A model generated the notes under the pieces. The model saw nothing but the letters and a program-made list of their open reading frames with translations. It was not told the DNA's origin and did no database searches. The translations under genes and the position numbers were made by a program. Shown piece after piece: positions 20,050 through 29,673 of a stretch of DNA of 64,000 nucleotides (its first letter is position 1; each line of letters begins with the position of its first letter). The DNA is from Planctomycetota bacterium (GTDB lineage Bacteria > Planctomycetota > UBA1135 > UBA2386), in contig NYVR01000091.1 in NCBI GenBank assembly GCA_002684655.1, positions 1,452 through 65,451 on the forward strand, given 5' to 3'.

Positions 20050-20763
20050 CTAGGAGCCGCCGCGGCCGAACTTTGGCCCGCCGCCAGCGCCGTTGCTGGG
20101 TTTGCCCTTCGACTTGCTCTTACTAATACGAGGCCGACCGGCCTTGTTACCGCTGTTGCAACCTGCTCATTCGCTGGGCAACGGCAAGCCTTGCAGATCC
20201 TCCATCTCCATACGCGCGAGGCGGACAGCTGCCTCAAGGTCCTCGCGGTGCAGCGTCTTCTCGGCTTCGTTAGGAGCCTGCTCGGCGAGCCATCGCCAGT
20301 TCTGCCTCGCAGCCTCGATTTCAGGCTCCCAGACTTTTCGGTCGAGGCCCTCGAGGCGCATCAGCCAGGTCTTGAGGAACTGCGCGCGCGCCAGCGCCTG
20401 CCGGGCTTCGCGCAACAAGGTGTCATCAGCGTCCGGCGCAGCCTGCATCGCCTCCACCAGGCTGGCGAGCTCGTCGCGGGCCTCGATGAGCCCTTGCGAC
20501 TGCATGCGGGCCTTGTTGAGCTCGATCACGAGCCGGTGACCGACACGCTCGTCGTATGCATCCGGGTCTGCCGGCAGCGCCTCGAGCGCCGCCTGATACT
20601 CGCGGATCGCGAGCTCCCAGTCGCCTGCTTCCGCCGCCTCGTAGGCCGTCGCCGCGACCGCGCCCGCGGCCTCGAGGGCAACCTGATCCTGGCCCGGGCC
20701 TTCGTGATAGGCCCACGCTCCGACTGGGAGCACGAGCCAACCGATCAGCAGGATGTTTCGCAT
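20050..20763 (-). CDS. Membrane-anchored helical/TPR-like protein of the MoxR-VWA operon; candidate selenoprotein (UGA at 20167-20169, E-U-A-G-C)
   Basis: The ORF track stops at 20167 (198 aa). Reading through TGA gives PSE-U-AGCNSGNKAGRPRISKSKSKGKPSNGAGGGPKFGRGGS and TAG at 20050-20052. The 198-aa part is secure; the extension is inferred. Confidence 0.65.
20131..20144 (-). promoter_or_regulatory. Candidate SECIS-like hairpin
   Basis: AGGCC-GGUC-GGCCU hairpin starting 22 nt after the UGA at 20167-20169; only 5 bp. Confidence 0.35.
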
Positions 20764-20950
20764 GATGTGATGCTTGCTGGCCGACTGTCGACCGCAGCAG
20801 ACAGCTTATCGGCGACGACGGCTGCCAGGGGCCAGGACGCCAGAAAACTTCGCTGGGCCGGGCCGATCGCGCACTTAAAGCCCTTTTTTCGATCAGATAA
20901 AGACACCGGCAGCACCTGCGCCGACGCGCGCGCAGGGCGAGCCCGAGCGG

Positions 20951-28600: not shown

Positions 28601-29673
28601 GGCTTAGCTACCTCAACGCCGAGGAGTCGGATCCACTCCTCCCGAACGCCGCCGCCGTCCATCGCGCGGCGAACAATCGGCGCGAGCAGCGCGCACTGCT
28701 GCTTGTCAAACCCACCCGGCGCCATGCCGGCGAGGATCAACGCCTCCTCGAATGAGAAGCGGTTCTTCTCCTGCAGATTTGCCGGCAAGCGACTCGGCGG
28801 CTTGTTGGGGTGCCGCAGCAACGTCTTGAGGAAGTGCTCGTAGACCTGCTTGCGGTCCTTCTCGGCGAACGTGCCAAAGAACGCCGCGACCGCCGACCAG
28901 CGACTCAGCGTGACGTCGCGTTGGAACATCTCGAGCTCACGCTGCAGGATCTTGGCTTCGACGCTGGCGTCGACGCCCGACGCCGCTGGCGGCGCGGGCG
29001 TCGCCTCACCCGCCGCCTGCAGCTCTGCCGCCGGGGCGCCCCCTTCTTCGGCGTCGATCAACGCTTGGATCTGTGACGCGCTCATCGCGCCATTCGAGGT
29101 CACCCGCATCGCCTTGGTAGCGGTCGTGGCGCGAACCGCCGGTCGAACAGGCTGCGCCGGCACGGTCGGGATCACGACGAGACGGGTGGCTGCTGCGCGC
29201 TGGACGCCAGGGCTGCCCGGCTTACCTGCGGTCGGTCGCTGCCCGCCGGCCTTTCGCGCTCCGTCTCGCGCCGCGCGACCTGCTGACGTGTCTGGACCCG
29301 GCGCGTCGCCAGCGGCCGGCTTCTTGGCCTCTTCGCTGGGGTCATAGGGCTTCAGCTCAGGCTGCGCCCACGCCTTGAGGATCGAGGACGGACGACGATC
29401 GAAGACAAGCTTCTTAAACGCCTGCAGGCGCTTCTGCTCGCGCTGCGCCGCAGCAGCTTGGCCAGGGTCGCCGGTCTTCGACGAGCTCTTGGAAGCTGGG
29501 CCTTGCGGGCGAGAAGCCTTGCTCATCTCGGCGAGGAATTCGGCGCGCATCTCGGGCGGCACTTCATTGAGATCGAAGCCTGGCGGCAGCTCGAGCGCAG
29601 GCACCGCCTGCGACGGCAGCGAGGCGCCGGCGACGACCGCGGCAGTGAACATTGAGATCAGGTAAACGCGCAT
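25615..29673 (-). CDS. Large exported, C-terminally anchored helical-repeat protein (~1350 aa)
   Basis: Signal peptide from ATG 29673, Pro/Ala-rich linker, long alpha-helical region, beta domains, TM (WWAWLLFAVAAALYLAWFLF); 51 bp upstream of moxR. Confidence 0.78.
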   Translation of the reverse strand: MRVYLISMFTAAVVAGASLPSQAVPALELPPGFDLNEVPPEMRAEFLAEMSKASRPQGPASKSSSKTGDPGQAAAAQREQKRLQAFKKLVFDRRPSSILKAWAQPELKPYDPSEEAKKPAAGDAPGPDTSAGRAARDGARKAGGQRPTAGKPGSPGVQRAAATRLVVIPTVPAQPVRPAVRATTATKAMRVTSNGAMSASQIQALIDAEEGGAPAAELQAAGEATPAPPAASGVDASVEAKILQRELEMFQRDVTLSRWSAVAAFFGTFAEKDRKQVYEHFLKTLLRHPNKPPSRLPANLQEKNRFSFEEALILAGMAPGGFDKQQCALLAPIVRRAMDGGGVREEWIRLLGVEVAKPASEHRVDRREAALLLSALEMNDELGGFLPTAAEAESADDREALNLLARHAMAMYAIDNRSAWLETAWAVTQAALAKGEIDAAQKDEALRRAVDLAPKVRAEIGPAWLKQSFTERPDRGMEIVATIGGQVAAGFAQKAREAGYRAAGLKLQKTAVEALLDTAPELADEWRPTLQLLAGGWVQEASYSNKFSKTSSVGSYMKRDSYGNVYWSSRRMGGGGQVTAIEPSDLLDSQPSDRWASLLGDDMRPNFTTVSAQLWLKVNEYEKAFPYIERLASTNGRKAKELADEFLRVWKNNNNPNSRNRGSDYIYVYGFDDRANSIPLTRAKQERNLAELAEYVGRLRALPMEPVDPRLLTQAFVAAHSLAEVYQLNTIESVFGDVAELDPIVLGQLIGRMRMNLATVWRVPAVQQQAKTRRSQKEMMAEVERDYATAIQLAEESLGTRGRHWSLLTAVATLQHDQNNFKKEVAPNSSFSEVREGAFELLAEAAEHYASTASSLTQNEETETVFTSWFYAALGASDLGAIDESMVVASSQLPLIKAAIAGLPAGHRERMQARFANLLFTRMSSVKPDIKFRYLKAGFEITGDHEQTKDAREVWNYYQDLIKEIRLEMVVDGSSQVGTAPFGVRVDIVHTDAVGRESGGFQKYATNQNDMAYAYNYGRPTENYRDKFHDGAIAALQENFEVLSATFNSENMEPLQGEQQGWQRTPYAYLLLQARGPQVDRIPEVKLDLDFKDTTGFFIMPVVSSPVAVDASRGPAQRPYEGLEVSQLLDERRVDEGKVTLEVKAKSEGLVPDLDEILDLDPPGFRVSKMDDQGAAVVRFAPDQDAIQSERVWLIALEPEDGVAAPGRFRFGAPKLEGMTTTYQRYDDADLETVASEIALHRRIDTSNPWWAWLLFAVAAALYLAWFLFAKPASGEAVIDDDALRMPESVTPFSVLAILQQVRSRGHLSDASLAQLDADIQRIEVLHFGKDPGDREPVDLASVARRWLSSAR

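What the first reader, a model, noticed from the sequence alone, without database searches (positions are those of the whole stretch)
20050..29673. MoxR-DUF58-VWA-VWA chaperone operon ending in a candidate new selenoprotein (UxxC tail)
Seen: the last gene of the cluster appears to stop at TGA 20167-20169. The next codons read A-G-C (E-U-A-G-C, a UxxC motif), the frame stays open for 38 more residues (K/G/S-rich tail) to TAG 20050, and a small hairpin follows the UGA. Two other UxxC genes in this window make Sec decoding plausible in this genome. Established: MoxR AAA+ ATPases act with VWA and DUF58 partners (Bat-type operons) as chaperones for assembly or metal insertion, and Bacteroides batI has been linked to aerotolerance. 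Inference: this is an envelope assembly module (1350-aa anchored scaffold, ATPase, two VWA proteins, BatD-like protein) with a dedicated selenol/thiol redox or metal-binding arm. I know of no selenoprotein family described in MoxR/Bat operons.
Basis: partly seen in the sequence, partly recalled or inferred. Interest (0 to 1): 0.85.

Follow-up and report, generated by a model that had tools for sequence, protein, structure and literature searches.

The report
New selenoprotein in a MoxR operon
The last gene of this MoxR/VWA envelope operon does not end at its TGA: it almost certainly reads it as selenocysteine, which reveals a widespread selenoprotein family of planctomycetes and verrucomicrobia that public databases truncate and that I did not find in current catalogues.

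Summary
The 198-codon ORF 20167..20763 (-) ends at TGA 20167-20169. Reading on gives E-U-A-G-C and 38 more residues to TAG 20050-20052.

Evidence that the TGA encodes selenocysteine:
- 31 of 33 orthologues in related genomes, and 72 of 80 loci from a species-wide collection, keep an in-frame TGA at this column. The other 2 and 8 have Cys there. The two sets overlap.
- The tail is conserved as protein up to a G-[GS]-G-S end. dN/dS is below 1 in 36 of 36 pairs. Similarity vanishes after the final stop.
- All 72 TGA forms have a 4-7 bp hairpin with an invariant GGUC loop. It fits the published bacterial SECIS model and shows compensatory changes. None of the 8 Cys forms has it.
- The genome holds tRNA-Sec, selA, selB and selD.

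The protein has a signal-like N-terminus, a TPR-like helical domain and a disordered, basic Sec/Cys tail. It sits in the BatC position of a conserved Bat-like module. It matches none of the 119 families in a 2026 catalogue and no NCBIfam selenoprotein model. Databases hold it as a truncated "hypothetical protein". Its function (redox or metal arm) is inferred, not shown.

The parts
20050..20763 (-). Full selenoprotein gene: 237 codons (Sec at codon 199) plus the TAG stop at 20050-20052. It has a signal-like N-terminus, a TPR-like helical domain and a disordered basic tail.
   Evidence: Orthologues match over residues 1-237. AF2 model: helices 25-190 with pLDDT mostly above 90, residues 200-237 below 50. 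TPR-like by Foldseek and Pfam, weak matches only.
20167..20169 (-). In-frame TGA read as selenocysteine (U199).
   Evidence: TGA at this column in 31 of 33 and 72 of 80 loci. Cys in the others.
20158..20160 (-). TGC (Cys202), the second position of the U-x-G-C motif. It is a second TGA (U-x-G-U) in 11 of 31 related TGA forms.
20131..20144 (-). SECIS-like hairpin: 5-bp stem, GGUC loop, 27 nt after the UGA.
20053..20157 (-). Coding tail after the U-x-G-C motif (35 codons). It is K/R/G/S-rich and ends in G-R-G-G-S.
   Evidence: Conserved to the final stop in all loci. dN/dS below 1 and third-position bias.
19993..20016 (-). Terminator-like hairpin with a T run, 34 nt after the TAG. None lies between the TGA and the TAG.
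   Evidence: This is a consensus match; the count in the region is not above shuffles.
20951..22006 (-). VWA protein 2 (351 aa as listed), with hydrophobic segments at both ends and a MIDAS-type DxSxS motif.
   Evidence: Pfam VWA_2. Hydropathy. Upstream of the selenoprotein gene in 57 of 65 loci.
21919..22941 (-). VWA protein 1, BatA-like (340 aa as listed), with three hydrophobic segments.
   Evidence: Pfam VWA and VWA_2. NCBIfam BatA model at 60.5 bits, far below its cut-off of 380. Hydropathy.
22839..23651 (-). 270-aa protein of no known family: signal-like N-terminus and one hydrophobic segment at 137-155.
   Evidence: No Pfam or NCBIfam match. Hydropathy. Syntenic.
23648..24565 (-). DUF58 protein (305 aa).
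   Evidence: Pfam DUF58, E 1.8e-37.
24562..25563 (-). MoxR-type AAA+ ATPase (333 aa).
   Evidence: Pfam AAA_3 E 4.1e-62 and AAA_lid_2 E 1.2e-23.
25615..29700 (-). Large protein of about 1350 aa (ATG at 29673 or TTG at 29700): signal-like N-terminus, one hydrophobic segment at 1261-1279 and a short C-terminal tail. It is linked to the module in all clades.
   Evidence: No Pfam match. Hydropathy. A homologue lies on one side or the other in 41 of 47 full-flank loci. BatD only as a 0.79-0.80 lead.

Best explanation
SHOWN by comparison. The gene at 20050-20763 (-) encodes a 237-residue selenoprotein. TGA 20167-20169 is decoded as selenocysteine. The signal is a SECIS hairpin (5-bp stem, GGUC loop) 27 nt downstream, inside the coding tail. 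The organism has its own tRNA-Sec, SelA, SelB and SelD.

The gene belongs to a family found in Planctomycetota and Verrucomicrobiota. In this family Sec and Cys have replaced each other repeatedly at this column.

SHOWN by synteny. The gene is part of a conserved seven-gene module. The order is MoxR ATPase, DUF58, a 270-aa membrane protein, two membrane-anchored VWA proteins, this protein, and a protein of about 1350 aa. The large protein lies either before MoxR or directly after the selenoprotein gene.

INFERRED.
- The N-terminus (about 15 hydrophobic residues ending in A-x-A) exports or anchors the protein at the periplasmic face.
- The TPR-like domain docks it to the Bat-like complex, in the place that BatC holds in Bacteroides-type operons.
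- The disordered, basic C-terminal arm carries the chemically active U-x-G-C (elsewhere U-x-G-U or Cys clusters).

My committed mechanism is that the arm cycles between selenolate/thiolate and selenenylsulfide and passes reducing equivalents to or from envelope clients of the complex (odds about 0.45). Binding of a soft metal by the same residues is the close second (about 0.3).

The confidence given below is for the shown part: real Sec decoding, a new family and membership of the module.
For: - In-frame TGA at the same column in 31 of 33 orthologues among 61 related genomes, with matches over residues 1-237, and in 72 of 80 loci of the GTDB species collection. The two sets overlap.
- Cys at that column in the other 2 and 8, and in many full-length database proteins.
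- The tail is conserved to a G-[GS]-G-S end. The final stop is TGA 46, TAG 26, TAA 8. Tail nucleotide identity is 79.5%, against 25.4% after the stop. dN/dS was 0-0.84 in 36 of 36 pairs of the 9 equal-length sequences. Differences by codon position were 170/212/458.
- Hairpin: RNAalifold finds it unprompted. 88.5% of cells are paired against 62.3% in shuffles (0 of 500 reach it), 5 of 6 pairs have changes on both sides, and slid controls reach at most 44.3%. It is present in 72 of 72 TGA forms and 0 of 8 Cys forms. The background is 0.006 per 25 nt. It meets the published bSECIS constraints read in PMC13188914 section 5: 4-nt loop beginning GG, stem of at least 4 bp, 27 nt spacing, -8.2 kcal/mol.
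- Machinery: tRNA-Sec 72.8 bits and ARAGORN anticodon tca; selA 450.8, selB 351.6, selD 354 bits. Two further Sec genes lie in the window.
- Synteny.
- Fold and disorder.
- A variant in another sample's contig at 20116 falls on a third codon position and is synonymous (my reading).
- Background for the inferred part, from passages read: bat mutants of B. fragilis are partly rescued by reducing agents, and Bat proteins were proposed to reduce periplasmic proteins or export reducing power (PMC3557215). The VWA domain of a BatA-like Borrelia protein faces the periplasm (PMC5700661).
Against: - There is no direct evidence of selenium in the protein and no peptide beyond the UGA.
- Rfam has no match here.
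- In a 60-nt context the fold is no more stable than shuffles (z = -0.25). One MFE fold of 70 nt did not choose the hairpin.
- Most of the covariation is one split between two clades plus a few extra changes. The sequences are kin, so the shuffle control overstates.
- selA presence does not separate TGA forms from Cys forms.

Against the inferred mechanism:
- Cys forms have variable numbers and spacings of Cys (2 to 7) in a Lys-rich disordered stretch. That looks more like a metal-thiolate site than a fixed redox dithiol.
- Some distant members have no Cys at all.
- Export rests on my reading of the N-terminus. My hydropathy scan did not call a membrane segment in this protein, and no signal-peptide predictor was available.
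- Homology to BatC was not tested.
- Deleting the bat genes in Leptospira gave no oxidative-stress phenotype (PMC3557215).
Confidence: 0.9

Rival explanations
1. The Sec/Cys arm is a soft-metal site (Cu, Zn, Hg or similar), not a redox shuttle. It would hand a metal ion to, or take it from, clients of the MoxR/VWA machine. This would be in line with the kinship of MoxR/VWA pairs with metal chelatases and cofactor-insertion systems.
For: - Cys forms carry 2-7 Cys with variable spacing (CxxC, CxxCC, CxCxC, CCxCxCCC and others) in a Lys-rich disordered stretch, like metallothioneins.
- UxxU and UxxC metal-binding selenoproteins are in the catalogue (PMC13188914 Table 1).
- The same window encodes an HMA-domain protein with U-N-G-C.
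- The MoxR and VWA proteins give weak matches to BchD/ChlI/cobaltochelatase models.
Against: - Sec forms keep only two chalcogen residues.
- If the arm is periplasmic, free thiolates would tend to be oxidised. From my recall, periplasmic metal proteins mostly use Met and His.
- The only positions held across the family are the pair at i and i+3 with Gly between them, which is the classic redox spacing.
Confidence: 0.3
2. The TGA is a true stop and the protein has 198 residues. The conserved sequence after it would be a non-coding element, such as a terminator or regulatory RNA, or a separate small gene.
For: - All public gene calls stop there: 194-198 aa 'hypothetical protein' or 'tetratricopeptide repeat protein'.
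- Sec insertion is usually inefficient (from my recall), so some truncated product is likely in any case.
- The hairpin is small.
Against: - Conservation is in the reading frame: dN/dS is below 1 and the third position is biased.
- The tail runs to a common protein end with any of the three stops.
- Cys forms are continuous ORFs with the same tail.
- The hairpin stands with the TGA in 72 of 72 forms and is absent from 8 of 8 Cys forms.
- The tail has no start codon of its own that is conserved (my reading).
- The terminator-like site lies after the TAG.
Confidence: 0.03
3. The TGA is read through by something other than Sec: a general reassignment of TGA, or near-cognate read-through giving Trp, Cys or Arg.
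For: The frame is open and conserved, which any read-through would explain.
Against: - TGA is the final stop of this same gene in 46 of 80 loci.
- The complete Sec machinery is present.
- The aligned residue in TGA-free homologues is always Cys.
- The hairpin fits the SECIS model.
Confidence: 0.02

Closest known systems
BatC, the TPR protein of the Bacteroides aerotolerance (Bat) operon and its spirochaete and Francisella counterparts
   Same: - It follows two membrane-anchored VWA genes (BatA/BatB-like) that stand behind a MoxR ATPase and a DUF58 gene.
- In distant clades a large signal-bearing, C-terminally anchored protein follows it, in the BatD position.
- It has a TPR-like fold.
- A link to reducing power has been proposed for the Bat system (PMC3557215 passages).
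   Different: - No sequence family match to any Bat model beyond a sub-threshold BatA hit for the VWA neighbour.
- Homology to BatC was not tested, because no BatC sequence was available to me.
- I found no description of a Sec/Cys tail for Bat proteins in the passages read or in the searches.
- The gene order batA-E is recalled.
Catalogued prokaryotic selenoproteins with UxxC or UxxU motifs (thioredoxin-fold families, HMA/CopZ-type and the UxxU 'metal-binding protein' NF041115)
   Same: - Sec paired with Cys or Sec at i+3.
- Cys-containing homologues.
- SECIS hairpin inside the coding region.
- Repeated Sec/Cys exchange (PMC13188914 Table 1).
   Different: - The motif lies in a disordered basic tail behind a TPR-like domain, not in a thioredoxin or ferredoxin-like fold.
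- No member of the family matches any NCBIfam selenoprotein model (0 of 33 at E up to 1).
- None of the 119 catalogued families is a TPR, VWA or MoxR-linked protein.
Bacterial SECIS consensus (bSECISearch model as given in PMC13188914, section 5)
   Same: - Loop of 3-9 nt with G in its first two positions (here GGUC).
- Upper stem of at least 4 bp.
- 16-37 nt between the UGA and the loop (here 27; 18-27 for the UGA nearest the loop in all forms).
- At most -7.5 kcal/mol (here -8.2).
   Different: - It is a very short helix.
- In the U-x5-U forms the first UGA lies 39 nt from the loop, just outside the model. A second hairpin holds the second UGA in its loop.
- Binding by SelB is not tested.
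C-terminal Sec arm of large thioredoxin reductases (recalled, not tested here)
   Same: Sec next to Cys on a flexible C-terminal extension that could swing between partners.
   Different: It is an unrelated protein and fold in eukaryotes. The resemblance is one of principle only.

Membership tests
Bacterial selenoprotein gene (Sec-UGA with bSECIS) | In-frame UGA conserved among orthologues | tested here: met
   31 of 33 and 72 of 80 loci.
Bacterial selenoprotein gene (Sec-UGA with bSECIS) | Homologues with Cys aligned to the UGA | tested here: met
   2 of 33 and 8 of 80 loci, plus many full-length database proteins.
Bacterial selenoprotein gene (Sec-UGA with bSECIS) | Protein-level conservation downstream of the UGA, ending at a common stop | tested here: met
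Bacterial selenoprotein gene (Sec-UGA with bSECIS) | Stem-loop fitting the bSECIS model (loop 3-9 nt with G first, stem at least 4 bp, 16-37 nt from the UGA, at most -7.5 kcal/mol) | tested here: met
   bSECISearch itself was not available.
Bacterial selenoprotein gene (Sec-UGA with bSECIS) | tRNA-Sec, SelA, SelB and SelD in the genome | tested here: met
Bacterial selenoprotein gene (Sec-UGA with bSECIS) | Selenium in the protein (75Se labelling or mass spectrometry) | not testable with these tools
   An RNA-library contig that bridges the UGA by 36 nt says nothing about translation.
Catalogued selenoprotein families (Table 1 of PMC13188914; NCBIfam and Pfam models) | Match to the family's model or description | tested here: not met
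   - No NCBIfam match at E up to 0.01.
- 0 of 33 members hit a selenoprotein model at E up to 1.
- Pfam gives only weak TPR.
- The table was read whole.
- Families defined only by cd or PTHR identifiers, GOS_A, and BSepDB's supplementary list could not be checked.
Bat (Bacteroides aerotolerance-type) operon | MoxR AAA+ ATPase and DUF58 gene ahead of the bat genes | tested here: met
Bat (Bacteroides aerotolerance-type) operon | BatA/BatB: membrane-anchored VWA proteins matching the Bat models | tested here: inconclusive
   VWA domains and hydrophobic anchors are present. The NCBIfam BatA and BatB models score 60.5 and 30.3 bits against cut-offs of 380 and 350.
Bat (Bacteroides aerotolerance-type) operon | BatD (Pfam PF13584) | tested here: not met
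   No Pfam match for the 1350-aa or the 270-aa protein at E up to 5. There is only a 0.79-0.80 feature-similarity lead.
Bat (Bacteroides aerotolerance-type) operon | BatC: homology of the TPR protein | not tested
   No BatC sequence or model was available. Position and fold agree.
TPR repeat proteins | Match to TPR models or fold | tested here: inconclusive
   - Pfam TPR_11 at 18.6 bits, below its cut-off of 26.8.
- Foldseek best hits are TPR proteins at E 5e-3 or weaker.
- PDB profile search: designed TPRs at E 1.4e-5 over about 30 residues.

The most novel reading that the evidence does not exclude
This would be the first selenoprotein subunit of a MoxR/VWA (Bat-type) envelope machine, and it would be exported. 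Its swinging selenolate arm would be the missing chemically active centre of these widespread systems. Their function has stayed elusive since 1999, and their only functional clue was rescue by reducing agents. The Cys-cluster homologues in cultivable planctomycetes would then give a direct handle to test what Bat-like systems do.
Probability: 0.35. Interest if true: 0.8.

Novelty: new member of a known kind. Interest (0 to 1): 0.62.

Why it matters
- It adds a selenoprotein family that I did not find among the 119 families of a 2026 catalogue.
- The family is common in marine and freshwater Planctomycetota and Verrucomicrobiota. 877 clusters at 50% identity match the family profile. 72 of 80 species-level loci carry the TGA form.
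- Every public gene call seen here truncates it, so selenoproteome counts for the PVC group are too low.
- It is unusual among selenoproteins in two ways. The Sec lies in a disordered tail behind a TPR-like domain, not in a thioredoxin-type fold. The protein is probably exported.
- It places a redox- or metal-active residue pair inside a Bat-like MoxR/VWA module. The biochemical role of that class of operon is still unknown. This turns a vague link to "aerotolerance" into testable experiments.

Tried and rejected
- Rfam scan of 19900-20400 at E up to 10: no match. Rfam may hold no model of this hairpin type.
- Thermodynamic test in a 60-nt context: not different from shuffles. I do not use stability as evidence.
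- selA across 61 relatives and 10 further genomes: present nearly everywhere, including 7 of 8 Cys-form genomes.
- Foldseek against the PDB: no match at E 1e-3 or better, only TPR-like rows. PDB sequence profile search: short TPR matches only.
- Reads: three RNA-library contigs cover parts of the gene, and one (X20) covers 20131-20298. These are contigs, and DNA can be present in such libraries. This shows neither expression level nor translation. The parts without cover mean nothing.
- Habitat: holders are marine or seawater metagenomes. I laid only four runs.
- Papers PMC9879109 and PMC12013261 (Haft and co-workers) are not held. I know their families only through Table 1 of PMC13188914.
- Supplementary tables that could list further candidates were closed: S9 of PMC4807772, Table S2 of PMC13326102 and Table S2 of PMC12013277. 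A prior mention there cannot be excluded.
- I considered a frameshift or a separate small ORF for the tail. I rejected both because the frame is continuous in the Cys forms.
- The tree of Sec and Cys forms used the quick method. The 'U' state of database proteins was inferred from truncation at the column, not from DNA. From P0002-P0121 I left out the truncated forms as near-copies. From all database proteins I left out those without the L-P-x-P motif or with another residue at the column. The count of at least 15 changes (at least 4 forced by well-supported branches) is therefore rough, and the direction of change is not shown.
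Full report
**What is there.** On the minus strand the window carries a tight run of genes. In order they are:
- a protein of about 1350 aa with no known family (25615..29700)
- a MoxR-type AAA+ ATPase (24562..25563; AAA_3, E 4e-62)
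- a DUF58 protein (23648..24565)
- a 270-aa protein with no known family (22839..23651)
- two VWA proteins (21919..22941 and 20951..22006)
- after 188 nt, a 198-codon ORF (20167..20763) that ends at TGA

Read through, this ORF continues as E-U-A-G-C and 34 more residues to TAG 20050-20052.

Taken alone it is weak. The DNA is 66.8% G+C. A mechanical scan finds 52 TGA codons in the window with a U/C two residues away, and by my reading of that list about half of them have at least 38 open codons behind them.

**Comparative test.** I searched the read-through product (U written as C) in six frames in 60 relatives plus the window's own genome. It matched in 33 of 61 genomes, nearly always over residues 1-237. 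In 31 of these the match contains an in-frame TGA, and in 2 (another family of the order) it contains none. Translations around the site show the following:
- U at the same column in the 31, and Cys in the 2.
- The motif is U-x-G-C in 19, U-x-G-U in 11 and U-x5-U in 1.
- The tail is conserved to a G-[GS]-G-S end.
- After that end all similarity is lost.

A scan of one genome per GTDB species found 210 loci that encode a relative. In the best 80 kept, 72 have U and 8 have Cys at the column. This set overlaps the first one. The records are MAGs labelled Planctomycetota for the most part, with about a dozen labelled Verrucomicrobiota or Akkermansiaceae. The true stop is TGA in 46, TAG in 26 and TAA in 8, so TGA is also an ordinary stop in these organisms.

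**Selection on the tail.** I compared the 9 sequences of equal length (of the 33). The 38 codons after the U gave dN/dS of 0 to 0.84 in all 36 pairs. Differences fell 170, 212 and 458 times on codon positions 1, 2 and 3. Nucleotide identity was 79.5% in the tail and 25.4% in the same register after the stop. A variant in a contig from another sample, at 20116, falls on a third position and leaves Ser unchanged (my reading).

**The recoding signal.** I aligned the 57 nt from the UGA onwards of the 31 TGA forms. Six columns, C-G-G-T-C-G, are invariant.
- RNAalifold predicts, unprompted, a 5-bp helix around a GGUC loop, and 4 of its 5 pairs show compensatory changes.
- For a 6-pair version, 88.5% of cells pair against 62.3% in shuffles (0 of 500 reach it). 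Slid controls reach at most 44.3%.
- Much of the covariation is one switch between two clades, with a few extra G-U and U-A variants. The rows are kin, so these numbers overstate independence.

In the 80 loci, all 72 TGA forms have the hairpin, with a stem of 4-7 bp. The loop starts 21-42 nt from the T of the first TGA and 21-30 nt from the TGA nearest the loop. None of the 8 Cys forms has it. The background rate of such hairpins in the same loci is 0.006 per 25 nt.

The published bacterial SECIS model was read in section 5 of PMC13188914. [quoted passage not shown] The window's hairpin (20131-20144) has a GGUC loop, 5 bp, 27 nt spacing and -8.2 kcal/mol. Rfam has no match. In a 60-nt context the fold is no better than shuffles.

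**Machinery.** The window's genome has 176 contigs and is 85.7% complete. It holds:
- a tRNA-Sec (72.8 bits; ARAGORN anticodon tca)
- selA (450.8 bits), selB (351.6 bits) and selD (354 bits, itself with an in-frame TGA)

Two more genes in the window have a UGA inside a Pfam match at the expected Cys: Thioredoxin_7 (W-U-G-W-C) and HMA (U-N-G-C). selA is present in 60 of 61 relatives and in 7 of 8 Cys-form genomes. Its presence is therefore consistent but not discriminating.

**The protein.** An AlphaFold2 model was built from the 33-row alignment (mean pLDDT 80.4, pTM 0.69). It gives:
- an N-terminal helix (2-21)
- a helical repeat domain (25-190, pLDDT mostly above 90)
- a disordered tail (200-237, pLDDT below 50) that begins right at the U-x-G-C

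Foldseek and a PDB profile search find only TPR proteins, and weakly. Pfam gives sub-threshold TPR.

The N-terminus is M-R-x, then about 15 hydrophobic residues ending in A-x-A, then an almost invariant Y-H-x-G-P-G-Q. I read this as a signal peptide or signal anchor that puts the rest outside the cytoplasm. No predictor was available, and my hydropathy scan did not call a membrane helix in this protein.

The neighbours fit an envelope complex by hydropathy:
- The 1350-aa and 270-aa proteins have signal-like N-termini and one later hydrophobic segment.
- The VWA proteins have two or three hydrophobic segments.

**The module.**
- Of 65 loci with more than 3 kb upstream, 57 have the second VWA gene upstream on the same strand.
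- Of 61 loci with at least 5.7 kb upstream, 48 have all five upstream genes in order.
- A homologue of the 1350-aa protein lies directly downstream in 37 of 60 loci with enough sequence, and upstream of MoxR in 19. It is on one side or the other in 41 of 47 full-flank loci.

In the distant clades the order is VWA, VWA, this protein, large protein. As I recall it, this is the order batA-batB-batC-batD of Bacteroides. The large protein resembles BatD only as a 0.79-0.80 language-model lead, and Pfam finds nothing. I therefore call the module Bat-like. I call the selenoprotein the positional and architectural counterpart of BatC. I do not call it a member.

**Family and evolution.**
- A profile search of 1.84 billion cluster representatives gives 877 at E up to 1e-3 and 176 at E up to 1e-30.
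- Of the best 150, 25 end exactly at the U column, which marks truncated TGA forms.
- By my rough motif parse of the remaining rows, most full-length ones carry Cys clusters of varied form, and some distant ones have no Cys.
- Public names are 'hypothetical protein' or 'tetratricopeptide repeat protein', with lengths of 194-198 aa for the TGA forms.
- On a quick tree of 163 rows built from the part before the column, Sec and Cys change at least 15 times (at least 4 forced by well-supported branches). A deep group of 27 rows is all Cys. The caveats are listed under Tried and rejected.

**Is it known?** I read the whole of Table 1 of the 2026 review PMC13188914, which lists 119 families and subfamilies. 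None is a TPR, VWA, MoxR or Bat-linked protein.
- The words TPR, tetratricopeptide, Planctomycet-, Verrucomicrob-, MoxR and von Willebrand do not occur in that review. The same words, except von Willebrand, which I did not search there, do not occur in the deep-Sep paper or the BSepDB paper.
- GOS_C is a thioredoxin-fold protein (passages of PMC2398784).
- None of the 33 family members matches an NCBIfam selenoprotein model at E up to 1.
- Only one unrelated paper in the library holds both 'selenoprotein' and 'MoxR'.
- The two Haft papers and several supplementary tables could not be read.

On this basis the family is new to the catalogues that I could check.

**How it most likely works.**

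Shown: Sec decoding by a coding-region SECIS, and membership of the module.

Inferred: the protein is exported or anchored outside, it docks through its TPR-like domain, and it presents a flexible basic arm with U-x-G-C.

I commit to a redox arm (selenolate/selenenylsulfide exchange) at about 0.45, for four reasons.
- The one pair held across the family has the i/i+3 spacing with Gly between.
- Sec and Cys exchange repeatedly.
- Most selenoproteins are redox proteins (PMC13188914).
- The only functional clue for Bat systems is rescue by reducing agents (PMC3557215 passages), while the VWA domain of a BatA-like protein faces the periplasm (PMC5700661 abstract and passages).

A soft-metal site is the close rival, at about 0.3. 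The Cys forms look like metallothionein, and MoxR/VWA pairs are kin of chelatases.

**Verdict.** This is a real and well-supported new selenoprotein family in a Bat-like MoxR/VWA operon. The function of the arm is open.

Noticed in passing
window 42778-43740 (-), UGA at 43156-43158: A second selenoprotein gene. It is a thioredoxin-like protein (Pfam Thioredoxin_7, E 2.8e-8, with the match running across the UGA) with the motif W-U-G-W-C.
   Followed up: partly
window 59239-59643 (+), UGA at 59470-59472: A third selenoprotein gene. It is a small, probably exported heavy-metal-associated (HMA) domain protein with U-N-G-C in place of the usual CxxC (Pfam HMA, E 1e-9).
   Followed up: partly
L042 (G000:C88:23304-24242), next to selA at C88:21915-23255: The genome's selD match has one in-frame TGA, so SelD is itself probably a selenoprotein. 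It lies directly after selA.
   Followed up: no
L081-L083, L086-L091, L106-L108, L111, L117 (tail region of the homologue): Variants with two Sec codons six codons apart (U-x5-U) carry two hairpins. A 7-bp one starts about 11 nt after the first UGA and holds the second UGA in its loop. The GGUC hairpin follows it. In the U-x-G-U forms the two UGA codons, 9 nt apart, share one hairpin.
   Followed up: partly
window 25615-29700 (-) and loci L079-L122: The gene for the 1350-aa protein changes place between clades. It lies upstream of MoxR in the window's clade and directly downstream of the selenoprotein gene in distant Planctomycetota and in Verrucomicrobiota. In several verrucomicrobial loci it is the only module gene within 6 kb of the selenoprotein gene.
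   Followed up: partly
window 21919-22006 (-): The listed ORFs of the two VWA genes overlap by 88 nt, and the tblastn matches overlap by about 85 nt in many loci. The first 25 or so residues of the second VWA protein are poorly conserved. Its true start is probably further downstream.
   Followed up: no
L101, L106: Two records labelled Rhodobiaceae and Paracoccaceae carry genes that group with the verrucomicrobial and planctomycete forms. The likely cause is mis-binned contigs rather than transfer.
   Followed up: no
window 13732-19953 (+): A 2073-codon ORF converges on the selenoprotein gene. Its end lies about 100 nt from the TAG. I did not examine it.
   Followed up: no
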